Of a stretch of DNA of 64,000 nucleotides, positions 9,565 through 64,000 are shown piece by piece. Position 1 is the stretch's first letter. Each line of letters opens with the position of its first letter. The stretch is from assembly GCF_028641065.1 (NCBI RefSeq), contig NC_073400.1, positions 29,388,001 through 29,452,000 of the forward strand, written 5' to 3'. This stretch comes from Leucoraja erinacea (taxonomy: Eukaryota). A model generated the notes under the pieces. That model searched no databases. It was not told where the DNA came from and saw nothing but the letters and a program-made list of their open reading frames with translations. Both the position numbers and the translations under genes were made by a program.

Positions 9565-9601
9565 ATATGGATTCGGTTGCTTCTCATTTGTTCGCTGCCC
9601 G
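9565..9601 (+). pseudogene. Inverted, start-lost leader exon of the same receptor family
   Basis: ATA TGG ATT CGG TTG CTT CTC ATT TGT TCG CTG CCC G|gtgagtgaaagcc aligns with the other leaders; ATG has become ATA and the strand is opposite. Confidence 0.7.
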
Positions 9602-10859
9602 GTGAGTGAAAGCCGGACCCAGTCGTTCTGATAATCAGTTTGAGACTCGAATATTGTTTTCACGGCAGAAATTGTTAGATATGTGTGGATGCAAGGAACG
9701 GCAGATGCAGGGGTTTTCAAAAGAAAAACACAAAGTGCTGGAGTAACAAAAGAGGGTCAAGTAACAGCTATGCACAATGGGGATATGTGACATTTTGGTT
9801 CGGGATGTTGCCACAATGCGTGGACTTGTAAAGGCAGAACATCAAACTCAGGTGCATTATGGCGTAGTCTTCTCATGTCTCTTTGATCTGCACCATTCTG
9901 CTAGATAAATAATCGCCAGTACGTCTGAGATTCCACCATAAATTATGGATATTTAAATAGGCTCCGAACTATACAGACTCGGGGGCGATATTTGTGACTT
10001 TGCAATATTATTGTTTGTTGATTTGTCTATTTGTGTTTTTATAAATATACTGGACTTTGTGTTGTTGTTTATTATGCGTTTTACAGAACACTGTGTTTTA
10101 CAGCGTACTGTAAAATATTAAGTAAGAATATAATTGTGAGGTTTCAAAACATATGACAATAAAATACTCTTGACTGTTGACTAGATTCATACGCCAGTGG
10201 CATAAATCCAAGGTGAAAATTGTCTTCCTAAAAAGGAGTTTTTGTAATGTTCTCCAGGTTTCACTGAAGTGGAACTAATCGCTCAAATATTTGTTTCTCT
10301 AGTTCTTAATTGTTCTTAATTGTTATGTTCTTTAACATACAGTCGATGAAATGTTTTATGATCTTATTCCCTTCACCATCTTTGTCTCTAACTGTGAACT
10401 CTGGTCTAGGGTTCAAGTTCCTGTTCGGGCTTTCACTTTTACACAAGGCTTTGTTATAGACAAGTTTTGAATAGGGATAGACAGCATGGTTTCCTACGTA
10501 GGATATCATGTCTGGAGTATCTCAGTGAGTCATGCAACATCTCTGGAGGTCATGGACAGGTATTTTCCCGGCTGGGACCCTTCTTCAAACTGATGGTGAG
10601 TGGAAGGATGCTGGCAGAGAGGTGGAGCAAGACAAAGCCTGGTATGTAATAGGTGGATAGAGGTGAGGGGTGGGGGAAATGAATAAGGGGTATGAATTAG
10701 AGATTTGGACAGGTAGCCACTCAGCCACGGCCGTCGGTCAACACATTGCCGTCTGGAATTTGTCCCTTATTTTGACCTTTTGTCCCTTATTTGGGAGTGA
10801 GAAAGTTGGCAACCCTAGTTGCGCCGAAATATCCTATTGCTATAGGATCTTTGGTTGCG

Positions 10860-33442: not shown

Positions 33443-33760
33443 CTTCAGATACTTGGAGATGTACTTGAAATGTTGGTTCGCCAGGTGTAGTAATTCCACA
33501 TCTGTACCATCCTGTATCTCCAGAGTGAAGACCCTCCACAGTCACTGTAAATATTCCTCGTTCCGGGTTATCTGTGATTGCCACTCTTCCGCTCTGTCCA
33601 TCCTTCCCATTTGTTTCACCTACATGTGTACACTGGCGACTTGTCCCACGGCACCAGTATTTTGTGTGTGAGCGGTACACTGCTGCATAGTGACAATCGA
33701 TTGTGTTCGCTCTTCCCACATTCCCTCTTACTTTGCTCTCTGCCCACAGTGCACCTGAAA
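33443..33760 (-). CDS. Orphan intact V-set Ig exon (paralog of gene C V4)
   Basis: Open 318-nt exon with AG/GT sites. Flanks about 33330-34400 match about 48540-49830. No leader, C2 or TM exon of its own was found. Confidence 0.75.
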
Positions 33761-35219
33761 CTGAAGGAAACATATTTCATAAATTGAAGAGCAAAATTAA
33801 CCTTTCACAAACATATACATTATAGTATACATCAATGTGTACAGGGGAATCCGCCCAATCATTTTCGTAACGTGTTGAATTCCACCTAGATTGCGATGAG
33901 AGACAGATACTGTACACCGTCCCTCACCATCTGCTTCCAAAGCGCTTCCCAGCCAATGTGGGTGTGAATGGTGAAGAATGATGCATTGAAGACGGAGCCT
34001 GTTGCAATTGGAAGGCGCTGTCTAGGGAGTGTTGGTGAGTTGCTGCAGTGCATCGTGCAGATGGTGTAAACTGCTGCTGCTCTGCATAAGCCGGGGAGGT
34101 TGACGATGGGGTGTCTATCAAGCGCGATTCTGGGTCATGACAGACGAGCACAAGTGTTCAGCGAAACTGTGGCCTAGGCTTTGCTTGGCCTCGCTGATGT
34201 AAACCATTCACACTCGCTTCTGGACTTCCCCTCTGAGCGTCTCCACACCTACTGGGAGCTACATTTCAAAACTCACTTTGACAAAAGTAACGGGTTTACT
34301 TTATGGCGTGACGGGGAGGAAGATTCACTTTAATTTTGAGAGATTATTGAGGTTCCTCCAGAGATTCACACAAATTAATACGTTTTTAATCCTGCCATGA
34401 TTATGAAACCCATGCGTACACAAGCAGACCGTACAAACGCCATACAGACAGCACCCAAGGTCAGGATCGAACCCGGGATTCGGATGCTGTGAGGCAGCGG
34501 CTCTACCTGTTGTGCCAATGTGTGATTGTCTCAGATATCTTTCAACTTTCCTTGCAGGCAAGAACAAGGATTGAACCCTGGTTAGCAGCATGGGGGCTGC
34601 ATGCTTGCAAACCGGCAAGCTAAGTGCAGAGTTAAGTCTATGGTACTTCCTCCCCGATGGTTTTGCAAGCAGACTGTGAACACCCTTCCTTGTGTGTTGG
34701 TGATAAGGGCTCCCCGGTCAGATACTTTTTGCATTGCGTTTTGTTGCACAACCACAGAGCTCCACAAGGCAGCTGTGCTCTGGACAAAACTGTTATCCAT
34801 CTACTTCTGCAGTGTACAATTGGCAAAAAAACGTTATAGATACAACATGGAAACAGGCTCTTCGGCTCACCGAATCTGCGCCAACCAGTGTTCACCCCGG
34901 ATACAATTTACTGTGCAATTTAACCTACAAACCTGTCTGTCTTTGGTGTGTGGGAGGAAACCGGAACACCGCGAGAAAACCCATGCGGACACAATGAGAA
35001 CGTACAGACTCCATATAGACAGCAGCCGAGATCAGCATTGAACCTGGGTCTCAGGCGCTGTTTGACAGCAACACTACTGCTTTGCCACTTTGTTCCATCT
35101 ACTGACCTGCCAGGGCAATGTATTCCCCCTGAGCTAACATTCTTATATCTTCGATTTTCCAGCATCTGCAGTTCCTTCTTAAACATTCTTATACTCTGCA
35201 TGTTCTTGCTGAATTCTTG

Positions 35220-39591: not shown

Positions 39592-39858
39592 CTAAGAAAC
39601 GACAGAGGCATAGGTTGACTCAGTGTTCTCTGGAGTCATAGTAGAGTGGGGTTTCCGAATGCCCTTTGGGCAGTTGCGGTGAAAATTGACATCTGCGTAG
39701 ACGACAGCGTGTTCAGCCGCATGCTGCCTTGATCTCAACTTCCTTTGACAATTCACCACTGCATACGCGATTCCACCTTCATTGTTATCCAAATGGTCAC
39801 CTGCCCTGTTGTTTTCCAGATTTGAATCAACGTGGTTCCCTTCCATCACTGCCATTTC
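39592..39858 (-). CDS. Gene C terminal exon with three ITIMs (IAYAVV, VVYADV, STYASV)
   Basis: tttcag|GAA ATG GCA ...; three matches to [ISVL]xYxx[ILV]; ends in TAG. Confidence 0.88.
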   Translation of the reverse strand, partial: EMAVMEGNHVDSNLENNRAGDHLDNNEGGIAYAVVNCQRKLRSRQHAAEHAVVYADVNFHRNCPKGIRKPHSTMTPENTESTYASVVS

Positions 39859-42800
39859 CTGAAATATAACAAAATCCCATTTTACAACCTAATAGATTTG
39901 AAAGGTCCTCAACAGAGGTCTATTACAAAGTAGGTCTCAAACTGTTCAGTGTACAGAACAAGCCATGGCTACTGTTTACAACACAAAGATAGTGCAGCAC
40001 GGTGGAGCAGCGGTAGAGTTGCTGCCTGACAGCGCCTACAACAGGTTTGTATTTTAGGTTAATTGGTTTGGTTTAATTGCAAATTGCCCCTAGTGTGTGT
40101 AGGATAGTGTTCGTGTGCGAGGTCACCCGTCGGCGTGGACTCGGTGGGCCAAATGGCGTGTTTCTGCGCTAGATCTCTCAACTGGAGTGGACTGGTGTTG
40201 CTAAATGTATATTTCACATTGTTACCTGGGTTTCATCGTTGTCTTCACCGTGTGATGTATTGTACTTGGATTCTGGAAAATATGTTGTCGATAGGGCCAT
40301 ATCAGGAACAGGTTTAAACATCATTCATTTATATATTTCATTCATGTGTTCCATGTACCTTCTATATCTCTCGTTTCCCTTTCCCCTGACTCTCAATCTG
40401 AAGAAGGGTCGCGACTCGAAACGTCACCTGTTCCTTTTCAAGAGTCAAGGGAGTTTTATTGTCATATGTCCCAGATAGAACAATGACAATCTTACTTGCT
40501 GCAGCACAATAGAATATGTAAACATAGTACATAACGGGAGAGAAAAAAAAGTTCAGTGTGTATATATACACATACATACATACTCAATCTGTTTATTTTA
40601 TCCAGGTAAGCTAACTACTATATTTGATGATTTTCTGTTGCGCTGCTGGCAAAATGTCGCTTCTGACCCGCTAATTGCTAGAGCATTTAATGTTTATCTT
40701 CAGTATTAACCACCATGTGCAGTTCCTTCCAACACACAAACATCTACATGTTTTGTGCAAGACTTTATATTTAGGAGAACCCCAAAAGTACTTCAGTATA
40801 TTTGCACGTACGGAGTAAGTGTATGCCCTCTTGTTCTGGTTACTCTACGTAATGTTCAGAATGGATCATATTCCCTGTGCTCTACCCATTCCACCCTAAA
40901 GCTACCTAAACCTACCTGATCTCCCTGTTGCTCAACACGTTAACTCCACCTCCCATTCCCACACTAACTATTCTGTCCTGGGCCTCATCCGGATGTTAGA
41001 CTAACTGGTCTGTAATTCCCCGTTTTCTCTCTCGCTCTCTTTTTAAAAAGTGGGGTTACATTAGCTACCCTCCAATCCTCAGTAACTACTCCAGAATCTA
41101 AAGAGTTTTGAAAAATTATCACTAATGCATCCACAATTTCTTGGGCTACTTCCTTAAGTACTCTGGGATGCAGCCTCCTATCTTGCCCAGGGAATTTATC
41201 GGCCTTTAATCCATTCAATTTACCAAACACCACTTTCCGGCATATCTGGATTTCACTCAGTTCCTCCATCTCATTTGACCCCTGGTCCCCTGCTATTTCC
41301 GGCAGATTATTTATGTCTTCCTTAGTGAAGACAGAACCAAAGTAGTTATTCAATTGTTCTGTCATGTCTTTGTTTCCCATGATCAATTCACCGGTTTTTG
41401 ACTGCAAGGGACCTACATTTGTTTTAACTAATCTTTTTCTCTTCACATATCTATAAACACTTTTGCAGTCAGTTTTTTATGTTCCCTGCCAGTTTTCTTT
41501 CATAATCTATTTTCCCTTTCCTAATTAAGCCCCTTGTCCTCCTCTGTGGACTCTGAATTTCTCCCTCTCCTCTTGTATGCTGCTTTTTTCTGGCTAATTT
41601 GTATGCTTATTCTTTTGTTTTGATACTATCCCTGATTTCAGCTCTGTGAACCTTCAAGTTTTCATCGGCAGCGGAGATAGTTGGCAGCTTCAAGTTCATG
41701 GGCGTTCACATCTTGGATTACCTGCCCAGGCTAGACTTGCCCGGCCTCAACTACCTCCTCTGGCAGCTCCTGCCATATACCCACCGCCCTCTGTGTGATG
41801 CAGGTATGTCGTACGTTTTCTATGTCCCTGTGAGGCTGCAGGCGTGATCTTCATTGTAACTGTACTTCAACGTGCTTGTTCATTTGACAATTAGCACGAC
41901 TTAACCTGATTCGAAATACAATAGCAAAACACAAAAGCATATTCTAACAGCTGAGAGGATGAGAGTATCTATGTAAATCTTACTTCTACCTAACCTCTTA
42001 GTTCTCATGCATCTCTGCTATTTCACACTCAGTTTCTGTACAATTATGTTAAAATAACATTTTATGTCACCGAGTCACCATGATAGCATCAAACATGATA
42101 GCATTATTGATCATTCATGCTTCCTCCTACTCTTTATTACTTTAATGCAGGGCATTTGTTGATTAGAACAGGATAAAATCTCTTGACATTCTGTAAGGAG
42201 CTGAGACATGTATTTTGAAATTATTTAAGATAAATCAGAAACTCACCCTTGGTTTTACGCTTTTGGTACCAAAAGAAGGCAATTATGAGAATCAGGAAAA
42301 GCACAGTGACACCAGACGCAACTATGTAAATGATCCTGTTGGACAGAAAATAGGGAAGGGTGAGACATGGCTCATCATTGATTCTTGGCCTTCAGTAAAG
42401 AACAAAAGTCAAACATTTATATGGCACCTTTCATGATTTTTATGAAGTGTGCAGCAAAGGAAATGAGGTGTAGAGTCTGTTTCAGTGGGTAATGCAGCAG
42501 TTAATCTGCTCACAGTAAGGTGACATTGACCAACGATCGTGCAACTGGTTGAAGAGCAATTGGGTCCAACCATTAAGGAACCCTCCCCTCTCCTTCACTA
42601 AAAATGCATGGGAAATGTTACACTTTTATAGCAATGATTAGTTGAGTTGAGTTCAGCTGAGTTTGGTTTAGTTTAGTTTAGTTTAAGTTAGTTTAATTTA
42701 TTTTATTTTAAAGATACAACATGGAAACAGGACTTTCCGACCACCAAATCTGCGTCGACCAGCAATCACCATATATTATATCTACCCGAAACATTAGAGA

Positions 42801-45800
42801 CAATTTACAGAAGCCAATTAACCTACAAACCTGCACGTCTTTGGAATGCGGGAAAAAACGGGAACATCTGGAGAACACCCACGTGGTCACTGAGAGAACG
42901 AACAAACTCCGTACATACAGCAACTGTAGTCAGGATCGATCACAATCTCTGGGGCAGTATGGCAGCAACTACATCGCTGTCCCACCATGCCACAGTTATT
43001 GGAGTTTTCATATCTGACAGCTAGCACGCTGCCCTCCTTCAGTACTGCAATGGTGTGGTACCCGATTTACCCTAATATTTGAAGCTATCCTTGAAACCAC
43101 CACTTTGTGAACACGGTTCTACAACCCTGTTCCAACCTCGGCAGAGAGAACACTACGCCAAAGAGAAAACAATGCACTTCTTTCAACAATTCTCACCCCA
43201 AAGCCATTTACATCTCCATCTCCACCAACATTGGTTTGGACAGTGACTGCTCGTTTAGGGCTGTCTGGAATATGGAACATCTACAACATATCCAGAAGGC
43301 GGCTCACCTTGACCATCTCAAGGTCAGCAGTGTGACCTAACGTGCCTACCACACAGGGTCACGTTCTAGGTGGAGACACTTCCTGCTGTTGGAGTGACTG
43401 ACATTGAGACTTTGACAAACTCCGTAAGTTGGTGTTTTAGCCCATAATTCACTATGCATTTTCCTACCAGTACCACCAGAGCAGGTCACAGCAAGGCAAC
43501 GCAGCAATAGTTGTGTTTGGCAACTATACTCATCTCACACCATGGGATGAGGTTAGTGATGGAGAACTCATGGTGAAAACCACAGGGAACGCCCTATAGA
43601 AACATAGAAACATGGAAAATATGTGCAGGAGGAGGCCATTCGGCCCTTTGAGTCAGCTCCGCCATACATTGTGATAATGGCTGATCGTCCCCAATCAATA
43701 AACCCTGCCTGCCTTCTCCCCATATCCCTTGATTCCACCAGCCCCTAGAGCTCTATCTAACAAGAGAGGGTTAGATACTTGACGCCGTACGTCACGCGCG
43801 AACTGCCCGCGGACTTCGCTCGAACTTCACGTCACTCACTCGACCTCCGCGCAGCCCCCGCGTCCAGTTTGGTCGCGCTTGCCGCATGTAGGTCGCATGC
43901 TGGTGGGACCGCCCCTCCACATCAGCAAGACAAAATGGTGACTGGACGATTGTTTCACTGAACACATATGCTCAGTCCGCCTGGGACTATATGATCTCCC
44001 AGTTGCTAACCTATTTAACTCCCCCTCCCATTCCCACACTGACTGTTCTATTCTGGGCTTTCTCCATTGCCAGAATGAGGCCGAATGGAACTTGGAGGAA
44101 CAGTGCCACACATTTCGCTTGGGCATCTTACAGCCAAGCGGCATAAATATTGATTTCTATAACTTCAAATAACCCTTGCATCCCCTCTCTCTCCGTCCCT
44201 CCCCCACCCTAGTCATTGCACGAATTTCACTGTTGTCTTGGAGTGTTTCATTGTCTGTACAACTCGTTTTCACCTAGCCCACAGCTAACTATGGATCGTT
44301 TCATTCATCATCGTAACTTTTGTTGCATATCTTTCATTCAATGTTTTATATCTTTCTATATCACCGTCGATATCGTTCTCGTTTCCCTTTCCCCTGACTC
44401 CCACTCTGAAGAGGGGTCTCAACCTAAAACGTCACCTATACCTTTTCTCCAGAGACGCTGTCTGACCCGACGAGTTACTCCAGTTGTTTGTATCTATATT
44501 CAGTTTAAACCAGCATCTGCAGTTCCTTCCAACACAATGAAAGTCGAAAGTTGCTGAACGCACATAGACGGCACCTAAGTTCGGGGTCTTGGCATTGTGA
44601 GGCTGTGGTTCCACTGGCTGTGTCTGGGCATTCAGATCAATAATCTCATGGGCCTTTAATGCCAGTGAACGGAGGAACCAACTTTCTCCCAATTGAAGCA
44701 ATCCCAATCAAAACACCAGCAATTAGTACATGGCGCCTTTCATTGGACACAGAGTATTTTACCTTGATGAATCATTGGATTCTTTCGAGGTTTCACAAGA
44801 ATATTCAAGTCCTGTTGGAACAAGGAAATAAAAATCAGTTTCACTGATTTTCACTTGCAGTTGAAGAAGAGAGCATGCTTGTCCGATGTAAGGAGTTTAT
44901 AGGTTTAATAGACAGGGCAATGTTTCTCCAGTGTAATTTGCAGCAAATGGGAGATGATTGCACAACTCAGGTAGAACTCAGGTCGCCGACATTAGGGCGG
45001 CACAGCGGTAGAGTTGTTGCCTTGCAGCGCCAAAGACCCGGGTTCAATCCTGACTACGGGTACAATCTGCACGGAGTTCGTATGTTCTCCCTGTGACCGC
45101 GTGGGTTTTATTCAAATGCTCCGGTTTTCTCCCACATTCTAAAGTCGTGCAGGTTTTGAGGTTAATTGCCTTCTGTAAATTGTCCCTAGTGAGTAGGATG
45201 GAATTTGTGCACCGGTGAAAAGCAGCTACTTCCACCTGGAATTCTAAACAAAACTAAAGGAGGTGATTTCATGCGAGGGATAGTGCCTGGGATGAAACAT
45301 TACAGTTCGAAGGAGAAGGCTGGATAGATGGGGATTTTAATCCATACAGGAAAAGAAGGGGGGACCTATTACAGCTGTGCAAAGCTATGAGGAACATAGA
45401 TAGGGTACTTTGTGGGAAATCAGCACAGCAGATGTGCGTAGAAATGGAGAACATAAGGTTGGGTTAAGGAGTAGAATATTTGGAGGGTATATGAGCAAGA
45501 CTTATTTTTAAACTTAGATAGTGGAGGCACTTGAATTGTCAAGTCTGAGAAGACTGTGGACGAGGGGCTGGTAAATGGATTAGTATCGATGGTTCTGAAT
45601 GGTCAACATTAACACTGTGGACCAAAGCTGAGGAGTCCAGAGTCCTCGAGGAGTTATCTGCGGCCACATTTACGGATAATTTCTGTTCCCTTCCCATATT
45701 TGAGCGTCGGTCATGTGGAGATGATGGAAAGTGAAAGTGCTTGGACTGATGTCACTGCAAACCTAGTTTAAAGGTGTGTAAACATAAGAGGAAGTTCTAG

Positions 45801-48800
45801 CCGGGAAGCTGGCCTACACCAGCACTGGGAAATCTATGTCTGGAGTCCAGCATTGACAAATGGACCATAATTACATCATTTTAATCTTGATAAGTTAATT
45901 AAATAACGTGCATGAATTTCAGGGTGTCGGGGGCTACGGGGAGAGGACAGGATCATGGGGTGAAGAAGGGAAGATACATCAGCCATGATTGAATGGTCTA
46001 TTTCTGCTTCTATCACTTGTGATCCTATGAACCACCCCACCTCCACTTCCCCTTCCTCTCCCCATTCCCTCCACTACTTACCAGTGCCGTTGAATTTCAC
46101 CAGGAAACTGCAGGGCACGTCACTGCTGGTGATGGACACGTTGACCATTTCACTGGATTTTGTTCCATTATTATTTGAGGCTGTGCAATAATATTGATGG
46201 TGCTGGTGTTTGAAGGATTGACAATGTAGATCCAGGACATTGTTGTCTGAGATCTTTGAATCCCCAGATGGGGTCTTTTCATACCAGGTGTGGTTAATGG
46301 GAAGGGATCCCCGGATCGACTCACAGGACACTGTCACTGAGCCCCCGAGACAAGAGACATTGGCTGGTGACAGACACCCAAGCACAGGAACAGACACGGG
46401 TTCTGTGGGAAAGGAGCAAACAGTCAGACACTGAGTGAACATCTGAAAATCAAACACTCGCCCATATCCACCATCTCTGTATCTTCGCCAGAGCCGCCAG
46501 GTTGGAATCTGACCCATCCACACTAGTTCCACCTGCTCTTGCTTAGCCCATAAGCTTCCAGACGCAAGAGACTGTGTATTTACTCGATCTATTCGTCGCG
46601 TGATTTTGTAGCTGCCATAAGATCATCCCTCATCCTCCTGCTCTCCCAGAAATGATGTCCTAGTCTGCTCAATCCCTCCCTGGAGTTCAGGCACTCAAGT
46701 CATGGCAGCATCATTGTAAATCTTCTCTGCACCCAATCTTACTTGATAGCATCTTTCCTATAACATGGTGATGAATACTGACCACAGAGCAGACATATCA
46801 TCAGACAATCTTCGATTCTCTTTTACATTTCAGGAATTGCCAGCAGGAAAAAGGGAGCATTGTTTATATAACTGTCGGACCCATCCCATCTACATAGATT
46901 CGTAGAGTCATACAGTAGAAACCTCGGCCTAACTTGCCCGCGCTGACCAACACGCCCAATCTACACTAGTTCCACATGTGCTTTCTTGGCCCTTAACCCT
47001 CTAAACATATCCTATTCATCTAACTGTCCAATATTTTCTGAAATGTTACGATAGTACCTGCCATAAATACTTCTGTCGGCAGTTCGTTTCATGGACCTAC
47101 CAACCTTTGTGTAAACACGTTATTCGCCAGGTTCCTGTTAAATCATTCCCCCCTGATATCAAAACTATGTCCTGCGGTTCTCGATTCCCCTACTCTGGGC
47201 GAAAGACCGTGTATTTACGATCTATTCCTCGCGTGATTTTTGTGATTAAAAAAAAATTAATAAATATTTTTATTAGAATCAATGTACAGTAGTATATACC
47301 GTGTTTTACATATTATTTTCGTGTACAACTTCTTGCTTTAAATTTATTTAATAGAAAAGTAACAGAAGCAAAAAAGAGAAGGAGAGAGAAAGTTCAGTAA
47401 AGTAGTGATATTGATAGTTCGTGAAATAGATAGAAAGAACCCGTAAAGTTATAAAGCCGCATAAAAACCGTGAACCACCTCCCCCCCCCCCCCGAAAAAT
47501 AAATAAATAAATTAGTAAATAGAAATAAAATATAGAAAATAAAATAAAATAATAAGAAAACAAAACAGAAAAAGAATAAAAGGGAGAAGGGATATACCTG
47601 CTTCATGTCTTTCCACACCCCTCACCCAGTTCTGAAACAGTTAATGTCCAGGGATATGTTGGACCATGTACTTGGAATGTCGATAAAAGGAAACTAAATC
47701 TTTAGGAATTGGTCTGCTTTACATGCTAGGACGAATCTCCTATCTTCGAGGTGTAACATTTTAGACCTGCTTGAAATCCACATTTGGGTTCGTTGTTCAA
47801 GAATTTGAGTATACGTTTTTTTGCTGTTATCAAGCCATGGTTAAGGAGAGAATTTTGGAACGAAATCACCTTAGAGCCGGCTTCCATTGTTCCAAAAATA
47901 ATCAATTCAGTGTTGGGGTCCAATTTTATTTTAAACTCGCGTGATTTTTTTACCTGCAATAAAATTACCCCTCATCCTCCTGCGCTCCAAGGAATAAAGC
48001 CCTAATCTGCTCAACCCCTCCCTGTATACCAGGCCCTCAAGTCATCGCAACATTCTTGTAAGTCTTCCCTGCTCCTTCTCCTCACAATCAATTTACCAGA
48101 TTTATACATCTCTGTGTCTCTCCATCCTCCCAGCTGCCAGAACTACCATGTCTGGCACTGGACCAGTACACAGCAGCACCATCTATCTTTGTTTTACAAT
48201 TCCAGCATCTGCAGTTAATCTTCTTTTAATCTGAAGCTCTGCATTTAATCTGAACATTCAAACACTTCATTAGTGCAACAGTATCAACAACGTTTTAATT
48301 ATCTTGCATAAAATTGTTGATGGTGATACTGTTGCACTAATGAGGTGTGTGAATGGCGGTATTGTAGAATAGTGTGTAGGGAGCGAATGGGAAAGTGGAA
48401 TAACATAGAACTAGTGTGACCGGTGATCGCTAGGTGGTGAGGACTCGGTGGGCCGAAGGATCCGTTTCCATGTTACATTTGTAAACTATTACTAAATATC
48501 CGGGTGAACATGTTTCTGTAAACTCTACAAACCGTTCACATCTTTTGTTTTATAAAGCGGCGACCAGAACTGTGCACCAGACTCCCACCTAACAAATGTT
48601 TTGCCCGTTGCCAAAGTGGAGACATCAAGTCACTCACTGAGAAACCTACCTTCAGATACTTGGAGATGTACTTTAAATGTTGGTTCGCCAGGTGTAGTAA
48701 TTCCACATTTGTACCATCCTGTATCTCCAGAGTGAAGATCCTCCACGGTCACAGTAAATATTCCTCGTGCCGGGTTATCTGTGATTGACACTGTTCCGTT

Positions 48801-51800
48801 CTGTCCACGTTTCCCATTTGTTTCCACTACATGTGTACACTGGCGACTTGTCTCACGACACCAGTATTTTGTGTGTGAGCGGTACACTGCTGCATAGTGA
48901 CAATCGATTGTGATCGCTCTTCCCACAATCCCTCTTACTTCGCTCTCCGCCCACAGTGCACCTGCAACTGAAGGAAACATCTTTCATAAATTGAAGAGCA
49001 AAATTAGCCTTTCACAAACATATACATTAGAGTATAATGTACAGGGGAGTCTGCCCACTCTATTTCTTAACTCTGTTGAATTCCACCTAGATTGCGATGA
49101 GAGACAGATACTATACACCGTCCCTCACCATCTGCACAGGTCGTTCCAAAGCGCTTCCCAGCCAATGTGGGTGTGAATGGTGAAGAATGATGTATTGAAG
49201 ATGGAGCCTGTTGCAATTGGAAGGCGCTGTCTAGGGAGTCTTGGTCAGTTGCTGCAGTGCATCGTGCAGATGGTGCAAACTGCTGCTGCTCTGCATCAGC
49301 GGGCGAGGTTGAGGATGGGGTGTCTATCATGCGCGATTCTGGGTCATGACAAACCAAACACAAGTGTTCGGCGAAATTGTAGCCTAGGCCAGTGCTTCTT
49401 AAACTGATGAATGGTTCACCCAAGGGCGAATAAAATTATTTTGGGGTAAATTAGTTAATTTATGTTTTTTGCTCATGTGACAAAATCAATTATCAATACA
49501 ATTATGCACAAAGGAAAATACGATGATAATAACCAAAAGAACATAAGAACATTTAGTGGAGGGTGAATTAAATTTTGTAATAAAGACTCAAGGGTGAATG
49601 ACTCTGTAATAGTTTAAGAAGAACTGGCCTTGTATAAAATTGGTCTCGCTGATGTAAACCATTCACACTCTCTTCGGGACTTCCAATCTGAGCGTCTCCA
49701 CACCTACAGGGACGTTCTTTTCAAAATTATCTTTGACAAAAGTAAGGGTTATACTTGATGGAGTGACGGCCAAGTAGATTCCAATTTAATTTTGTGAGAT
49801 TACTGGAGTTTTACACAAATTAACAGAGTTAAAATCATGAACATGATCATGAAATTGTACATCCTTGGTTATAACTGATGATGGATCCAAACAGACTGAA
49901 TTTGGTTTCTTTCTCTGTCTCAAAGTGCGGCAGCCAGAAAATAATTTTGATGGAATGCACTCAACCCGCAGTTATTTCTCTCATTTGCTGAAATTTCTCA
50001 CCACCTCCCAGGTGAAAGCAACAGGCAATCATTTACCAGTCCCCCAAACAAACTCTCGCATTTTACACCATGAGCTCCCGGTGGCTGCAATGATGCCGTC
50101 TGCAAATAACAAGAAATCCATGAACATCACCACAAGGTGAATGAATAGCAGCAGGTTCAGGGACACGAGAAGAACACTCACCTGCATTGTTGATTTCTGT
50201 CACATAACTGCACGTTCCTGCTCCTTTGAAGACTTTCACGTTGAGTATTTCACTGGATTTTGTCCCACGATTATTTGAGGCTCTGCAGTAATATTGACGG
50301 TGTTGACCTTCGAGGATTTCACAACTCAGATCCAGTTGATTGCCAGAAACGGTAGTTGAAACCCAATGCTCATTCTTCTCAAACCATGTGTAATGGATGG
50401 GAAGGGATCCACGGACAGACTCACACGACACTGACACTGAGCCTCCGAGATGTGAGGCATTTGCTGGTGACAGATATCTGAGCACAGGAGCAGACATGGG
50501 TTCTGTGGGAATGGAGCAAACATTCAGTCACCTGTATGAACAGTTAAAAACCAAACACATGCTAAATCTCAGCAGCCCTTTATCTCAGCCCGAACCGTCC
50601 GGTTGATATCTCACCGGCTCATCTACATCTCTGTGAGTGTGCGAAGCCCAGAAACTGAAGAAGGTTAGAGTTATAGAGAACCGAAAGATGCCCATCACAA
50701 CAGCTCATTTATGCCGACCAACATGTCTTTCTGGACCATTTCCATATGTCCACGTTTCTCCCTTATCACTCGCAATGATCCCAATCTACGCAAATATCAA
50801 AAAAATATTTTAAATGCTGCTATTCTAACTGCCTTAACACCTTCCCCTGGCAGCAGGTTCCATATAAATATCACCCAATGTGTGGAAAATGTTGTCCCTC
50901 AGAACATATGTTGGGATGTTACGTCCCTTTAAGATAGACACAAAATGCAGGAGTAACTCGGCGGATTAGGCAGCATCTTTCGAGAGAAGGAATGGGTGAC
51001 GTTTCGAATCGTGACCCTTCTTCAGCCTGAGAATCATGAGAAAGGGAGACAGAAGAGAAATTGAAGGGTACGGTGTGAAAACAGGTGATCAAAGGTGAAA
51101 ATGTTTTTCAAAAATGTAGAATGGATCATTGTCAGCTGAAGGGAAGGCATAGAATCAGTAAAATATAATCTGGAGGGCAGTGAAAATAATTGGAGGATTC
51201 GGATGGGGCGGGATGGAGACAGGAGTAAAGCAAGGGTTACTTGAAGTTAGAGAAGTCAATATTCAAACCGCTGGGTTGTAAGCTGCCCAAGCGAAATATG
51301 AGGCACTGTTCCTCCAATTTGCTTTTGGCCTCACTCTGCAGGGGAGGAGGTCCGGGACAGAAAGATCAGTTTGGGAATGGGAGGGGGAATAAAGGTGTTT
51401 TGCAATCGGGATGTAGCGCAGGCCGAGGAACACTGTGCGGAATTGTTCAGCGAAACGATCGCCGAGCCTGCGTTGGGTCTCCCATCTACTGTATCCGCTT
51501 GTTCACACCTGGAACAGCGGATATAGTAGAGGAGGTTAGAAGAGATGCAAGTGAACCTCTGACTCACCCGGAAATACTGTTGGAGCCTTGGACGGAGTAG
51601 AAGCGGGATATATAGGGACTGGTGTTGCATCTCCTGCAGTTGTAGGGGAAGGTATCTGGGGACGGGGTGGGAAAGGACGAGTTGACCAGGGAGTTGCGGA
51701 GTCTGTCGGGTTATTAGTTTGAGTCGGAATGCAAACCTCTGACAGGGTGACATTTCATACAGTTCAGAGGCAGGGAAATGTGCTGAGCATCCCACTTGAA

Positions 51801-54800
51801 GTGGGTGGCCGCTCAGTGGGACAGAGCCGGCACTGGGTGAGAGCAACATGAGTGGGGTTTCCCGACCCCCGCCCGCTCCCCGCAGGTCTCTGCACTGCTG
51901 CGGAGCCTCGGGATATCGGTGCTGCCCTGACCCTTCCCGGAGAGAACATAGATAAGGCATTTCAGTGGAGACGTCAAGTCAATCGCTGCGAAACGTACCG
52001 TCAGATACTTGGAGATGTACGTTAAATATTGGACGGTCGCCAGGTGTAGTAATTCCACAGCTGTACCATCCTGTATCTCCAGGGTGAAGATCCTTCACAG
52101 TCACAGCAAATATTCTTAGTGCCGGTATATCTGTGATTGACACTCTTCCACTCCGTCCGTTTTGCCCATTTGTTTCCACTGAAACTCTACATGGGCGATT
52201 CCTCCCACGGCACCAGTATTTTGTGCGTGAGCGGTACGCTGCTGCATAGTGACAATCGATTGTGATCGCTCTTCCCACAACTCCACTTACATCCCTCTCT
52301 GCCCACACTGCATCTGAAACTGAGGGGAGAAACTTTCAGATCAACCACAGATCAAACAACACTTGTTCCTCACTGGGATTATTAGTTTGAGTCTGAATGC
52401 AAATTTCTGACGGGTGACATTTCATACAGTTCAGAGGAAGGGAAATGCGCTGAGTATTCCACTTGAAGTGAAAAGTGAAGTTAAATCCCACTTTTCAAGA
52501 AAGGAGCGAGAGAAAACAGGAAATTACAGAGCAGTTAGCCTGACTTCTGTGCGGGAAAGATGCCGGAGTCAATTATTAAAGAGGTAATAATGGGGCATTT
52601 GGATAGCAGTAAAATAATTAGTCCAAGTCAGCATGGATTTATGAAAGGAAAATCATGCCTGACTAATCTTCTGGACTTTTTTGAGGATGTGGCAAGTAAA
52701 ATGGACGAAGGTGCGCCAGTGAATGTAGTGTATCTAGACTTCAAGAAATCCTTTGATAAGGTTCCGCACGGGAGACTGGTGACTAAAATGAGAGCGCATG
52801 GAAGGGTGTTGACGTGGATAGAAAATTGGTTGGCAGACAGGAAGCAAAGAGTAGGAGTGAACGGGTCCTTTTCAGAATGGCGGGAAGTGGCGAGTCAGTG
52901 GAGACGACAAGTCAATCGCTGCGAAACGTACCGTCAGATACATGGAGTTCTACGGTAAACATTGGGCGGCCGTTAGATGTTGCAATTCCACATCTGTACC
53001 ACCCTGTATCGCCAGAGAGAAGATCCTCCACAGTCACAGTAAATATTCCTCGTTCCGGGCTATCGGTGATTGACACTCTTCCACTCCTTCCGCGTAGCCC
53101 AATTGTTTCCACCATATCTGTACATTGGCGATTCTGCACACGGCACCAGTATTTTGTGTGTAAGCGGTACTCTGCTGCATACTGACAATCGATTGCAATC
53201 GCACTTCCCACAACTCCTCTTACATACGTCTCTCCCCACACTGCACCTGAAACTGAAGGGGAGAAACTTTCAGATGGAGAGCAAATTAACAGTTTAGTGG
53301 AAATAGATACATTTTGAAGATTACATGAAAGAAAACTTAAATAGTTCCATGATGTGTCATATTGCTTCACGGCCAATGTCTCCGGTCTGAAGTGCAGGCA
53401 GTGCTGTTATTCTACCAGTTGTGTCAGTGTTCTGTCCCCGGGTCAGTACAATTAGGGTTCACTTCCCACTCCAGATCCCTGAGCAGAAACTGGGCTGGGA
53501 TCGCAGTGCAGTGCTGAGGGAGCGCGGCAGTGTTGCAGGAGCTGCCTTTCAACAATCCCAGGCGGTTTCTGGCCTCTCACCCCACGAAAGACCCCACTTT
53601 GCTATTTCATTGGCGGTGACAATTTCTTCACAGCAGTTATCAGGCATCTGAATCATCCTACCACGCCCAGAGATCTGTCCTGAACTCCCATCTACCTCTT
53701 TGACGACCCTCGGACCACCCTTGATCGGACTTTGCCGCCTTTACCTTACACTAAACGTTATTTAATATTCATGTATCTATGCACTGTAGGAGAATCGATT
53801 GTAATCCTGTATTGTCTTTCTGCTGGAGACGTCAATCAATCGCTGCGAAACGTACCGTCAGATACTTCGAGATGAACATTTAATATTGGATGGTCGGCAG
53901 ATGTCTTAATTCCACATCTGTACCATCCTGTATCTCCATCCTGAAGATCGTCCACAGTCACAGTAAATATTCCTCGTGCCGGGTTATCTGTGATTGACAA
54001 TCTTCCACTACGTCCGTGTTGCTCATTTGTTTCCACCAAAACTGTACATTGGAGACTCATCCCACGGCACCAGTATTTTGTGTGTGAGCGGTACTCTGCT
54101 GCATAGTAACAATCGATTGTGGTCGCCGTTCCCACAACTCCTCTTACATCCCGCTTTGCCCACACTGCACCTGAAACTGAGGGGAGAAACTTTCAGATGG
54201 AGAGCAATGAACTGTTTAATGGAAATAGATACATTTTGAAGATTACTTCTTCATATAAACTACTTCATCGCCTCCAATGCATTCAGAACTCAGCAGCCCG
54301 GATCATCACCCGCACCAGATCATCGGACCACATCACAACCATCCTCACTCAGCTCCACTGGCTCCCTGTGCACCACCGGATTAACTACAAGAATTTACTG
54401 CTGACCTTCAAAGCCCTAGACCACCTTGCTCCCCAATACCTCTCTGACCTGCTGCTACCATACACTCCTTCCCGGTCACTTCGTTCCTCCTCATCTGCAA
54501 TTTTAACTGACCCCACATTTAGACTCAGCACAATGGTTGCCAGAGCCTTTGGCTGCTCTGCCCCACGTCTCTGGAACATTCTCCCACCTCCCTTCCGTCA
54601 CCTGGACACTATCGATCAATTCAAATCACAACTCAAAACACACCTGTTTAGATTAGCATACCCGACATAACTTCCACCATGTTCACCCTGATTTTAATGA
54701 CTTTAAATATTTTGTGTATTTTTTTGTTTTTTGTTTTTTGGCAACTTAATTTTAATATTGATAATTGTATTGTGATTTTATGTCCTGCAAGGTGTCCTTG

Positions 54801-54831
54801 GGTGTCGAGAGAGGCGCCAGCAAATAAAATG

Positions 54832-54881
<50 letters not shown>

Positions 54882-56419
54882 GAAAGAAAACTTAAATCGC
54901 CCCATGATGTGTCATATTGCTTCACGGCCAATGTCTCCGCTCTGAAGTGCAGGCAGTGCTGTTATTGTACCAGTTGTGTCAGTGTTCTGTCCCCGGTTCA
55001 GTACAATTTGGGTCCAGATCCCTGAGCAGAAACTGGGCTGGGATCGCAGTGCGGTACTGAGGGAGCGCGGCAGTGTTGCAGGAGCTGCCTTTCAACAATC
55101 CCAGGCGGTGCCCGGCCTCTCACGCCACAGAAAGACCCCACTTTGCTATTTAATTGGCGGTGCCGCCGGCTACGCTGCCAACATTCATCTCTCAACCGAC
55201 ACTGGGCAGGACCCGTGTTTTTTTTAATTATCAAATAATTTATTCAATTATTAAAAATAATATTTACACTACAATAAAACAAGAACCCAGCACCATAATA
55301 CAAGACAAACAAATATACTAAATACACTACTATACAACTATGTTACAATGCTTGTCAAGGATGTATTCAACCACAGGCGGTGCCCAGATGTCCCGGAAAG
55401 CCCCCAGGTGCCCGTGGACAGCGCCTGATCCTTCTCGAGTCCCACCCGGACGCAGAAAGCCGACCCGTGTTTACACATTCACCGCCGCCAATGCTTTCCA
55501 ACGCCCTGACTGAGGACAGAGGACGGACGAGTTACGGGTCCATTAACGGAGAGCGGGTCCATTAACGGAGAGCGTTAGTAGCGTGACAACGCACACCGCC
55601 AGATTCGGGGAATGTTTCTTCCCAGCTGTTATCAGACATCGGAATCATCCTCCCATAACCAGAGAGCAGTGCTGAACTATCTACCTCTTTGGTGACCCTC
55701 GGACTACCCTTGATCGGACTTTGCTGGCCTTACCTTACACTAAACGCTATTTCCCATGTAAGAGGATCGACTGTAATCATGTATCTGGCAGGTTAGCACG
55801 CAACAAAAAGCTTTTCTCTGTAACTCTGTACACGTGACAATAAAATGAACTTGGATTTCAGTACGACTGGGCCGCGGATCCGAGAGCGGATGGAGAGAGA
55901 GTTGGGAGTGGGTGGATAGAGCGAGGACAGTGGTTCAGTCTCAGACTCCGGGGAATTGTTGGGTTTGCGACAGAGTTGAGATGGACAAATGCAGGGAATA
56001 TTTGAACGGACACAATGAGTCCACAATCCTGACTTCCACCTCAGTTGTAAACACATTTTGTTAATGTAGAATTAACTTCCTGGTGATGTTGGAACCTCTG
56101 TCCTTCGGTCCAGGTGTCTTGGAGTATCTGCTCCAAATACATTCGCTATTTTATGCCTATAAACTACCATCAGGGTGCAATTAGACCTCGTGTTAACGGT
56201 TGTTAAACGACGAACATTGTCTAGATATTCAAATGTGGTTTCAGATCCATCCACACAATGCACTGAGTTCCATTTCCCCCATTACATGTCTACACACACT
56301 TAACCATCTCTGCTGTAGAAAGGGTGCACGGGACCCCAACTAACATTGATCATTGGAATATCAGGATCTGGCTTTCACTCACCCGGCAGCGAGGAGATGA
56401 GAAGAATGGAAATCCACAT
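39592..56419 (-). CDS. Gene C: inhibitory CD300/pIgR-like (MDIR-like) receptor with six Ig domains; 11 coding exons, 803 aa
   Basis: Exons 56383-56419, 53856-54176, 52932-53252, 51999-52319, 50182-50502, 48650-48967, 46082-46402, 44763-44811, 42247-42335, 40226-40272 and 39592-39858. Internal boundaries are AG/GT and phases are compatible. Total 2412 nt, open to TAG. Confidence 0.8.
40226..40272 (-). CDS. Gene C cytoplasmic exon 1 (ESKYNTSHGEDNDETQ)
   Basis: ttttccag acceptor, CAG|gtaac donor; phase 1 to 0 links the TM exon to the terminal exon. Confidence 0.75.
40990..41638 (-). mobile_element. CR1 ORF2 internal fragment
   Basis: LHPRVLKEVA ... DWRVANVTPLFKK ... GNYRPVSLTS. Confidence 0.9.
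42247..42335 (-). CDS. Gene C transmembrane exon (IIYIVASGVTVLFLILIIAFFWYQKRKTK)
   Basis: Uncharged hydrophobic helix followed by a basic stop-transfer stretch; phase 2 to 1; donor G|gtgagt. Confidence 0.88.
43925..44535 (+). mobile_element. Penelope-like fragment with terminal repeat
   Basis: Homologous to the reverse complement of 21460-22020. Confidence 0.75.
44763..44811 (-). CDS. Gene C stalk exon (GLEYSCETSKESNDSSR)
   Basis: 49 nt; ttccaacag acceptor, AG|gtaaaa donor; phase 1 to 2 exactly bridges the C2 and TM exons; paralog at 25148-25196. Confidence 0.8.
46082..46402 (-). CDS. Gene C C2/I-set Ig exon 2
   Basis: EPVSVPVLG ... QYYCTASN ... FNGT; 321 nt; donor G|gtaagt. Confidence 0.9.
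47242..47935 (-). mobile_element. L1-clade LINE 3' fragment with a 14-bp TSD
   Basis: CTCGCGTGATTTTT at 47228-47241 and 47936-47949; ELIIFG ... LITAKKRIL; T-rich 3' UTR. Confidence 0.75.
48650..48967 (-). CDS. Gene C V-set Ig exon V4
   Basis: Open 318-nt phase 1-1 exon; KYWCRETSRQC, DTGWYKC; donor G|gtaggt. Confidence 0.9.
50182..50502 (-). CDS. Gene C C2/I-set Ig exon 1
   Basis: cag|AA CCC ATG ... GCA G|gtgagt; VSCES, GSLPIHYTW, QYYCRASN (FcR-like C2 pattern); 321 nt. Confidence 0.88.
50933..51700 (-). mobile_element. Penelope-like fragment (degenerate GIY-YIG)
   Basis: FRVSQRFTCISSNLLYYIRCSRC; terminal ctgaagaaggg ... gaaacgtcacc. Confidence 0.78.
51999..52319 (-). CDS. Gene C V-set Ig exon V3
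   Basis: Open 321-nt phase 1-1 exon; KYWCRGRNRPC, DTGWYSC. Confidence 0.9.
52478..52895 (+). mobile_element. CR1 RT fragment between V2 and V3
   Basis: SQHGFMKGKSCLTNLLDFFE ... VVYLDFKKSFDKVPH. Confidence 0.9.
52932..53252 (-). CDS. Gene C V-set Ig exon V2
   Basis: Open 321-nt phase 1-1 exon; KYWCRVQNRQC, DTGWYRC. Confidence 0.9.
53856..54176 (-). CDS. Gene C V-set Ig exon V1
   Basis: cag|TT TCA GGT GCA GTG TGG ... GAC G|gtacgt; motifs IDC, KYWC, second C-C' Cys, DTGWYRC; 321 nt, phase 1-1. Confidence 0.9.
54247..54881 (+). mobile_element. L2-type LINE 3' fragment with a (TAT)n tail
   Basis: LQCIQNSAARIIT ... HIT ... LHWLPV ... RSLRSS; the empty site is visible at about 53320-53335. Confidence 0.88.
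55221..55461 (-). mobile_element. Short Tx1/L1-like 3' fragment with an 11-bp TSD
   Basis: GACCCGTGTTT at 55210-55220 and 55462-55472; poly(A) tail; empty site near 17200 and 28630. Confidence 0.7.
56383..56419 (-). CDS. Gene C leader exon (MWISILLISSLP)
   Basis: ATG plus 12 mostly hydrophobic codons, then G|GTGAGT (phase 1); paralogous to 19410-19446 and 30849-30885. Confidence 0.85.
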
Positions 56420-59521: not shown

Positions 59522-59569
59522 TCATTGTAATTCGTGGGTCGAGTGGCGAGGTTCTGTGTCATCGCGTCT
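59522..59569 (-). CDS. Gene D terminal coding exon (RRDDTEPRHSTHELQ*)
   Basis: Paralog of 23251-23292. Confidence 0.72.
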   Translation of the reverse strand, partial: RRDDTEPRHSTHELQ

Positions 59570-60168
59570 CTGCAAAAGACAATGTGAAGTCATCAGACAG
59601 ACTGACAGTGGGAACCACGCTTTATTTGTCCTGGCCACTCCCAACACATTGCTGTCTGCAAGATGCTAACCCACGAATTAGTTACTCCAATGCCAACGAA
59701 CCCACACCGGGCACAGAAATCTACGCTGCACACGTACAACCTGACAGAACCTCGTGATATCATCCACATAGAGATTTGGTTTATCTTCAGGATATGAAAA
59801 CGTGCACGATTTTTGTTTCTATTGATGGACAGGATATATGAAAGCATTAATGAAAAACCGTTTGGAAACACTCGGCGAAGAGAAGGGATTGCTTTGGGCG
59901 AATCCCTTCTGGTGAATCTATGGATTTCATTGCCACAGGAGGCTGTGGAGGCCAAGTTAATTCATACCGGAGATGCTGCCTGTCCCGCTGAGCTACTCCA
60001 GCATTTTTGTATCTGTCCAAATCAATTGATATTTTTAAGGCGGAGATTTCCATTTTCTTGATAAATAAGGATGTCAATGGTTATGGGGAGAAGGCAGGTG
60101 AATGGGATCGAGAGAGAAGGATAGATCAGCCGTTATTGGGGGCCGATTAGATATGATGAGCTGAATGG

Positions 60169-62643: not shown

Positions 62644-62734
62644 CTTAGAGTCTCTTGTGAACACCGCGGTTGAGATACTCCAGATCACAAGCAGGAGAAA
62701 GAACATCCAGCGCCCCACTTTCCATGAGATGTAA
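62644..62734 (-). CDS. Gene D (5' part outside window) TM exon (YISWKVGRWMFFLLLVIWSISTAVFTRDSK)
   Basis: 91-nt paralog of the gene B TM exon; canonical splice sites. Confidence 0.85.
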
Positions 62735-64000
62735 CTGGGCAAAGGTCAAGAAATACAGAGTCAATGGGAGGAAACGAGGCGGTTTATCTTTAAAGCATTT
62801 ACCTGTTATCTGCTTCATAATCTTGGTGAAGTGGAGCGGGGCGAAGCGGTAGCGTCAGTGGAGACCATCTTTGTAAAAGAACGGGTGTTGGACTGGGGGG
62901 GGGGGGGGGGGGGGGGGACAACATATGATCACCAATTGTTGACATCATTGCTGGGGCATGGCTACAAGACTGGGAATGAGAGACTACGCGGTTAAATGGA
63001 TTCAGAGAAGACAGATAAATAAGTCATGAGCTGGGACAGTGAATACAAAACAGATGGACACAAAATGTTGGAGAAACAGCGGGAGTGGCAGCATCTCTCT
63101 AGAGAGAAGGAATGCGTGAAGTTCCAGGTCGAGACCCTTCCTAAGACCGAGAATCACGGGAGAGGGAAACTGTGGATGTGGAAGGATACAAAGAACAGTG
63201 TGATACCCTGGAAGAAATAAAATGCAGCTGCAAGATTATAATAAAATCCATTTGGATAGACAGGAATAATAAAAACGGATCAATTCCAATAATGGAAGGG
63301 AGATGAGGCAATAAAAATGGAAACAGATGAGGCCAATTAATAAAATAAATTTAAAAATGATTATGCTTAATGACACACCCTGGATACTTCGTGGATCAAC
63401 GCGGTAGGTGTGTGGATGGAGGAATTGTGTTCGAAAAATCGGTTAAAGATTCGCTCATAACGGCGTGGCTTTCATGAACATTTGCTAACGCAAGTATAAC
63501 ACAAGAGTGTGATAGAAAGTCAGATATATTTCAAATGTGATAAGATAAATAACAACGTGTTATCACTTTCATGGCTATATTATGATTGAATATTTAATGG
63601 TTTCAAGTATCAACGAGTAAGAGAGAGTCAGTTAACTCATTTTGCTGTATTCGGTCTGATTCAAGACTATTTTCTCAAATTCTGCGCCAGCGATTTTCTG
63701 GTGTATGGCCCCACCAATGACAAGGTGTTACCACAAGTGATATCAAGGGGAGTGTGGTGTAGCCCATCATTCATAATGCATTTCCCTATCAGCATCACCC
63801 AAGAGCAAGTCACACCAAAGCCAAACTGGAAGACTAGGGTTTGGGAACTATATTAATCTCACAGCATGGGATGAGGTGAGTGATGGAGCAGTCATGTTGA
63901 ATACTGCAGGGAGCGCTCTCTGAAAAGCATCAAATGGAGGAACTTGTTCTTATCATCCAAGCATGTACACAACACAATGAGATGTAAACCAGTGCGATTC

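What the first reader, a model, noticed from the sequence alone, without database searches (positions are those of the whole stretch)
39592..56419. Six-domain inhibitory receptor V-V-V-C2-V-C2 with three ITIMs
Eleven exons join into an uninterrupted 2412-nt frame, including small 49-, 89- and 47-nt exons whose phases fit exactly. The tail carries IAYAVV, VVYADV and STYASV. The ectodomain mixes CD300/pIgR-type V domains (extra C-C' Cys pair) with FcR-like C2 domains. SHP-1/SHP-2 recruitment is inferred from the motifs.
Basis: partly seen in the sequence, partly recalled or inferred. Interest (0 to 1): 0.7.

Follow-up and report, generated by a model that had tools for sequence, protein, structure and literature searches.

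The report
Skate MDIR3-type inhibitory immune receptor
This is an intact skate gene of an immune-receptor family named in 2006 (MDIR), likely a brake on white blood cells; its only unusual feature is a third copy of the fast-evolving outer binding domain, whose use in the messenger RNA is predicted, not shown.

Summary
The 11 exons are there: all introns GT-AG, phases fit, 2412 nt, 803 aa, no hidden leader, three ITIM-consensus motifs. It is not a new kind of receptor. Each Ig, stalk, membrane and tail exon matches clearnose-skate MDIR3 (67-90% identity), which has the same V-V-C2-V-C2-stalk-TM-tail order and the same three tyrosine motifs. This gene has one more N-terminal V exon; V-V-V-C2-V-C2 occurs in 0 of 138 homologous proteins, but varied domain counts are the family's habit. 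It sits in a cluster of 38 V and 17 C2 exons beside likely activating genes with an arginine in the membrane segment, about 3 Mb from IL10 and C1orf116, neighbours of human PIGR (recalled). Distal V exons show dN/dS near 1.9. Whether V2 and V3 are spliced in is unproven: the public gene model skips them and fuses the gene to its neighbour, and RNA reads were uninformative. The scan has reported MDIR clusters before on other DNA. Ordinary member; low interest.

The parts
56383..56419 (-). Exon 1, leader MWISILLISSLP, phase-1 GT donor
   Evidence: near-identical to the MDIR3/MDIR5 leaders
53856..54176 (-). Exon 2, V1: double-disulfide V domain; begins with the end of the signal peptide
   Evidence: 71% to MDIR3 V1, 100% to part of P0002
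52932..53252 (-). Exon 3, V2: tandem V exon with about 370 bp of leader-type intron upstream; inclusion in mRNA not shown
   Evidence: best database match 83% (P0034)
51999..52319 (-). Exon 4, V3: tandem V exon; inclusion in mRNA not shown
   Evidence: best database match 78%; 0 deviations at 24 conserved columns
50182..50502 (-). Exon 5, C2a: FCRL-like C2 domain with an extra Cys60/Cys97 pair
   Evidence: 82% to MDIR3
48650..48967 (-). Exon 6, V4: conserved inner V class
   Evidence: 90% to MDIR3; own clade in the cluster tree
46082..46402 (-). Exon 7, C2b: FCRL-like C2 domain with Cys17
   Evidence: 82% to MDIR3
44763..44811 (-). Exon 8, 49-nt stalk with one cysteine (LEYSC)
   Evidence: 73% to MDIR3; Cys17 co-occurrence
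42247..42335 (-). Exon 9, 89-nt membrane exon, uncharged hydrophobic core followed by QKRKTK
   Evidence: 83% to MDIR3
40226..40272 (-). Exon 10, 47-nt first cytoplasmic exon
   Evidence: 67% to MDIR3, 93% to P0034 and P0038
39592..39858 (-). Exon 11, tail with three ITIM-consensus motifs and the stop codon
   Evidence: 74% to MDIR3, 92% to P0038; two paralogous tails in the genome

Best explanation
It is an MDIR3-type membrane receptor gene of a skate, with four CD300/pIgR-like V domains and two FCRL-like C2 domains, that likely damps white-blood-cell activation by recruiting SHP-1/SHP-2 to its three ITIM-consensus motifs. Shown: open frame, domain types, uncharged membrane segment, motifs, family membership, neighbours with near-identical outer domains but an arginine-bearing membrane segment and no ITIM tail. 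Inferred: the outer V domains (V1-V3, added by tandem exon duplication) bind the ligand, while V4 and the C2 domains act as a spacer; clustering lets a Src-family kinase phosphorylate Y747/Y769/Y798; tandem-SH2 phosphatases dock and oppose the paired activating MDIRs. The ligand is unknown; the fast change of the outer V exons points to a microbial or microbe-mimicked surface ligand (membrane lipid as for CD300, recalled, is my first guess). All Ig exons are phase 1-1, so four-, five- and six-domain splice forms would all stay in frame; I put about 0.6 on the six-domain form being made.
For: Exon-by-exon 67-90% identity and the same exon order as MDIR3, P0043. ITIM consensus S/I/V/LxYxxI/V/L and ITIM-dependent SHP-1/2 recruitment by teleost IpLITR tails (PMC4810170, passages). 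All three tyrosines kept in 10 of 10 chosen close tails; 48 of 138 homologs have two or more such motifs, 38 have the W-x-V/I-x-R-W membrane type, none both. Upstream neighbour: L-V-C-V-C-V-C-stalk-TM(Arg), its exons 84-91% identical to V1, C2a, V4, C2b. 13 distal V exons: omega 1.94, 2dlnL about 15 against omega 1; V4 class 0.70, C2b 0.69, C2a 1.28. V2/V3 exons differ 12-16% from paralogs where the flanking intron differs 3-8%. V2 and V3 keep all four cysteines and have essentially the same acceptor and the same donor as V1; 6 of 138 homologs, MDIR3 among them, start V-V-C-V-C.
Against: No splice joint of this gene among the 15 joints shown of about 790 in four RNA runs; depth on repeat-free exon bins was about 0-1.3. 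The public model P0002 joins V1 straight to C2a, lacks this leader, membrane and tail and fuses the gene to its upstream neighbour. No database protein holds V2 or V3 above 83%. The private-substitution test does not separate V2 (P 0.50) or V3 (P 0.07) from neutral decay, though it fails equally for V1 and V4. dN/dS can be distorted by gene conversion among tandem copies. ITIM-bearing fish receptors can also activate (PMC4810170). No ligand or signalling data were found for any MDIR in the papers seen.
Confidence: 0.8

Rival explanations
1. Same inhibitory receptor, but V2 and/or V3 are left-over duplicated exons that are usually skipped, so the product has four or five Ig domains (V-C-V-C or the MDIR3 layout V-V-C-V-C).
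For: P0002 skips both. V-V-V-C-V-C in 0 of 138 homologs. V2 carries 5 of its 10 private amino-acid changes at columns at least 80% conserved, and a retroelement-like fragment replaces the intron after it. An intact-looking orphan V exon at 33443-33761 shows that open V exons can lie outside a gene.
Against: Both exons are open, with splice sites like V1's; V1, which P0002 keeps, has a like load of changes (4 of 7); V-V-V runs exist in P0006 and P0122; P0002 and P0018 are chimeras of neighbouring genes, so the public models are poor guides here.
Confidence: 0.35
2. The public fused model is right: a ten-domain, membrane-less protein is made by read-through from the upstream gene.
For: P0002 (1078 aa) exists as an annotation.
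Against: The upstream gene has its own stalk, membrane and tail exons (65382, 62644, 59525 in window-extended numbering) and this gene its own leader with conserved upstream sequence. P0002 ends by reading into the intron after C2b.
Confidence: 0.05
3. It works as an antibody (Fc) receptor, binding polymeric IgM or IgW like pIgR, FCAMR or FCRL5, and feeds back to inhibit B cells or phagocytes.
For: Best solved-structure matches are pIgR for V and FCRL5 for C2; the cluster lies on the contig that holds IL10-family and C1orf116 matches.
Against: The loop between the first two cysteines has 13 residues in 4 of 4 V domains against 15 in pIgR D1, and lacks the SVNRH stretch that is recalled as the Ig-binding loop; per domain CD300 scores higher than pIgR D1 (67 against 58 bits); diversifying selection fits a changing foreign ligand better than a self Fc.
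Confidence: 0.1

Closest known systems
MDIR3 of clearnose skate (P0043, 701 aa; Cannon et al. 2006, seen only as a citation and as described in PMC3031540)
   Same: Leader, V-V-C2-V-C2 order, Cys stalk, uncharged membrane segment, two tail exons, three ITIM-consensus motifs; 67-90% identity per exon.
   Different: One more N-terminal V exon here; three residues shorter in the tail; IAY/STY in place of ITY/SIY.
Thorny skate pIgR-like models P0034, P0037, P0038
   Same: V-V-C-V-C with 89-92% identical last exon; P0034 holds the best V2 match (83%) in the same position.
   Different: Two N-terminal V domains; they are predicted models.
Mammalian CD300a / CD300f
   Same: Double-disulfide V domain, 13-residue first loop as aligned to the family pattern, ITIM tail, paired with activating relatives (PMC3031540 introduction).
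   Different: CD300 has one V domain and no C2; orthology not tested.
pIgR / FCAMR
   Same: Tandem double-disulfide V domains; top sequence and fold matches; same chromosomal neighbourhood at 3 Mb scale (human order recalled).
   Different: Shorter first loop, C2 domains interleaved, ITIM tail.
FCRL5
   Same: Best match of C2b (E 1e-7 for the best domain); ITIM tail (recalled).
   Different: FCRL5 has no V domains; MDIR C2 has extra cysteines and a C-terminal extension.

Membership tests
MDIR (MDIR3 type) | Close sequence identity of V and C2 modules to named MDIR proteins | tested here: met
   71-90% for V, 82% for C2 against P0043; MDIR2 and MDIR5 also hit
MDIR (MDIR3 type) | Ectodomain of modular CD300/pIgR-like V and FcR-like C2 domains | tested here: met
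MDIR (MDIR3 type) | Uncharged membrane segment and ITIM-bearing tail homologous to MDIR3 | tested here: met
   TM 83%, last exon 74%, three motifs in register
MDIR | Member of a multigene family with activating and inhibitory forms | tested here: met
   38 V and 17 C2 exons in 464 kb, both tail types
MDIR | Transcribed as the predicted receptor | tested here: inconclusive
   repeats swamp the lay; no joint of this gene shown
ITIM inhibitory receptors | S/I/V/LxYxxI/V/L motifs in the cytoplasmic tail | tested here: met
   3 of 3 tyrosines of the last exon
ITIM inhibitory receptors | Phospho-dependent SHP-1/SHP-2/SHIP binding and inhibition | not testable with these tools
   needs pull-down and cell assay
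pIgR / FCAMR | D1 with the long (15-residue) Ig-binding first loop | tested here: not met
   13 residues in 4 of 4 V domains; role of the loop recalled
CD300 | V domain with YWC motif and two disulfides | tested here: met
   Cys22/36/43/87 in 4 of 4; feature as in PMC3031540
CD300 | Single V domain | tested here: not met
   four V plus two C2 exons

The most novel reading that the evidence does not exclude
The three tandem, fast-evolving V domains form a multi-specific or high-avidity head on an inhibitory receptor from the elasmobranch counterpart of the PIGR/FCAMR region, and it binds skate polymeric immunoglobulin: a cartilaginous-fish inhibitory antibody receptor joining pIgR-type and FCRL-type domains in one chain.
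Probability: 0.08. Interest if true: 0.65.

Novelty: new member of a known kind. Interest (0 to 1): 0.2.

Why it matters
Modest. It corrects a public gene model (which fuses two genes, drops two exons and loses the tail), adds a domain order not seen in 138 homologs, and gives a matched inhibitory/activating pair for testing what MDIRs bind, which the papers seen here do not say. The family and its inhibitory form are on record since 2006.

Tried and rejected
Hidden leader splitting the gene: none by blastn or profile. RNA support: no RNA holder listed; four of twelve raw RNA runs laid, dominated by repeats, leader exon not included in the lay, no usable joints. Private-substitution test of V2/V3: no power. 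The spliced 803-aa protein was not searched or folded as a whole; single exons were searched and MDIR3 folded as a stand-in: five beta-sandwich domains, helix 562-592, disordered tail, pTM 0.34, so the domain arrangement is unresolved. Papers not held: Cannon 2006, Cannon 2010, Flowers 2021; their texts and supplements may already show a six-domain MDIR of this order and the synteny. From recall only: the 2006 abstract gives one to six Ig domains for MDIRs; the 2021 abstract places a shark double-disulfide Ig cluster syntenic to human PIGR. Eight paper searches found one relevant paper naming MDIRs. Script faults were fixed. No complex prediction was run.

Full report
Observation. The three motifs lie in one minus-strand frame at 39771-39601. 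The membrane exon is the only strongly hydrophobic stretch with a proper splice context between 46100 and 39500 (one other hydrophobic window there is cut by a stop). A profile of nine other leader exons finds none between this gene's leader (56419) and the next gene's (30885). Each V exon has a second in-frame acceptor 6 nt downstream; MDIR3 uses the first, as the model does.

What it is. The C2b exon finds 135 proteins (120 listed), all named ones among those listed from sharks, rays and skates, among them MDIR2, MDIR3 and MDIR5 of clearnose skate. MDIR3 has the order V-V-C2-V-C2-stalk-TM-cyt1-cyt2 and matches exon by exon: V 71 and 74%, C2a 82, V4 90, C2b 82, stalk 73, TM 83, cyt1 67, cyt2 74. 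PMC3031540 (introduction and passages read) describes MDIRs as a multigene family of activating and inhibitory receptors of clearnose skate resembling CD300, TREM, FCAR and pIgR. The original paper could not be read. A little-skate protein, P0002, holds V1, C2a, V4 and C2b at 100%, but starts in the upstream gene, skips V2 and V3, and stops in the intron after C2b.

Domains. All four V exons pass Pfam V-set and keep Cys22, 36, 43 and 87. Their best solved relatives are pIgR and CD300. The stretch between the first two cysteines is 13 residues in 4 of 4; among 284 homologous domains 173 have 13, 30 have 14, 1 has 12 and 80 did not fit the pattern; pIgR D1 has 15. C2b matches FCRL5 best. Both C2 exons carry Cys60 and Cys97 besides the canonical pair (99% and 96% of 253 homologous domains). 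Cys17 is present in 66 of 71 C2 domains followed by a cysteine-bearing stalk and in 38 of 106 followed by a V (76 others not classed); C2b has it and C2a does not, which supports the C2b-stalk join through a predicted disulfide. A model of MDIR3 gives five beta-sandwiches, one membrane helix and a disordered tail (mean pLDDT 70.7, pTM 0.34); its fold search returns pIgR first with low whole-chain TM-scores.

The extra V. Among 138 homologous proteins none is V-V-V-C-V-C, six are V-V-C-V-C, 15 have six domains in other orders and two contain a V-V-V run. V2 and V3 each come with flanking intron 85-92% like that around first V exons of other cluster genes and begin with the signal-peptide end, so they likely arose by duplication or unequal crossover of first V exons. 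They are open, with splice sites like V1's, and deviate at 2 and 0 of 24 columns conserved in at least 90% of homologs; V1 and V4 deviate at 1 each. A test against neutral decay had no power. No database protein holds them (best 83% and 78%). Four RNA runs (of twelve raw-read RNA runs offered) gave mostly repeat reads, a depth of about 1 or less on the V4 and C2a bins, near 0 on the membrane exon bin, and no joint of this gene among the 15 shown. Inclusion is therefore open.

Surroundings. In 464 kb of contig C24 (29,338,001-29,802,000) own profiles find 38 V and 17 C2 exons. Nine membrane exons of the W-x-V/I-x-R-W type were found (ten pattern hits, one dropped as chance; one search shows one more) and eight ITIM-rich tails (twelve frames with two or more motifs, four short ones dropped as likely chance). 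Directly upstream lies a six-domain gene V-C-V-C-V-C with the arginine-type membrane exon at 62644-62736 and exons 84-91% identical to V1, C2a, V4, C2b; downstream lie two V-C genes of the same type. An arginine at the outer edge of the membrane as a docking site for FcR-gamma is recalled, not tested. The only IL10-family matches and the best SARG/C1orf116 match of the genome lie on C24 at 32.6 and 33.0 Mb; the human order IL10-PIGR-FCAMR-C1orf116 is recalled, and Flowers et al. 2021 (citation only; abstract recalled) reported such synteny for sharks.

Selection. Codon models give omega 1.94 for 13 distal V exons (log-likelihood -1796.95 against -1804.68 at omega 1 on a three-point kappa grid), 0.70 for 5 V4-class exons, 1.28 for 5 C2a and 0.69 for 7 C2b exons; none of the last three differs clearly from 1. 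Two of the 20 V exons aligned were left out of these sets (the orphan and the most distant one). V2 and V3 differ from seven paralog comparisons by 12-16% while adjoining intron differs by 3-8%. Gene conversion could inflate both signals.

Mechanism. Shown: a type I membrane protein frame with three ITIM-consensus motifs, kept in 10 of 10 chosen close relatives (two with P at -2 of the first motif). Inferred: ligand binding by the outer V domains, tyrosine phosphorylation, SHP-1/SHP-2 docking and damping of signals from the paired activating MDIRs. PMC4810170 (passages) gives the consensus, shows ITIM-dependent SHP-1/2 recruitment for catfish IpLITR tails, and warns that such receptors can also activate; it notes Syk binding to tandem ITIMs 22 residues apart in PECAM-1, the distance of Y747 to Y769 here. 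Ligand unknown.

Novelty. A new member of a named family with one extra module. Ten earlier notes of this scan, on other genomes, describe MDIR clusters in the same terms (seen after my own reading was set); none lay near this place. Interest 0.2.

Noticed in passing
window 33443-33761 (-): Orphan V exon, open and with intact splice sites, 93% identical in DNA to V4, in an 870-bp block copied from the V4 region; it lies 5.8 kb past this gene's stop and 2.6 kb before the next leader, with no C2 beside it.
   Followed up: partly
window 62644-62736 and 59525-59572 (-), rest in L004-L006: Membrane and tail exons of the upstream six-domain V-C-V-C-V-C gene with an arginine in the membrane segment; likely the activating partner. 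Two of its V exons have lost the first acceptor and would use the second, 6 nt on.
   Followed up: partly
window 30885-23254 and 19446-13538 (-): Two L-V-C2-TM(Arg) genes like MDIR5; the public model P0041 fuses them and omits their membrane exons. A further leader-like exon faces the other way at 9565-9607.
   Followed up: partly
G000:C24:29,629,000-29,785,000 (L021-L041): Sixteen more distant V exons without C2; eight of them lack the second disulfide's first cysteine (W-S/R/K-K-G in place of W-C), four are near-identical 4-kb repeats.
   Followed up: no
G000:C24 about 29,733,900-29,751,000 (L036-L037): About 17 kb of degenerate CA/GT-rich low-complexity sequence next to a short run of N; may be an assembly artefact.
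   Followed up: no
G000:C24:29,525,495-29,525,794 (L011): A broken V exon (stop and shifted frame) upstream of an intact C2-stalk-TM(Arg) set.
   Followed up: no
G000:C10:58109126-58109383 and C11:26.14-26.22 Mb: A lone C2 match at 67% identity on another contig, and two weak V matches on a third.
   Followed up: no
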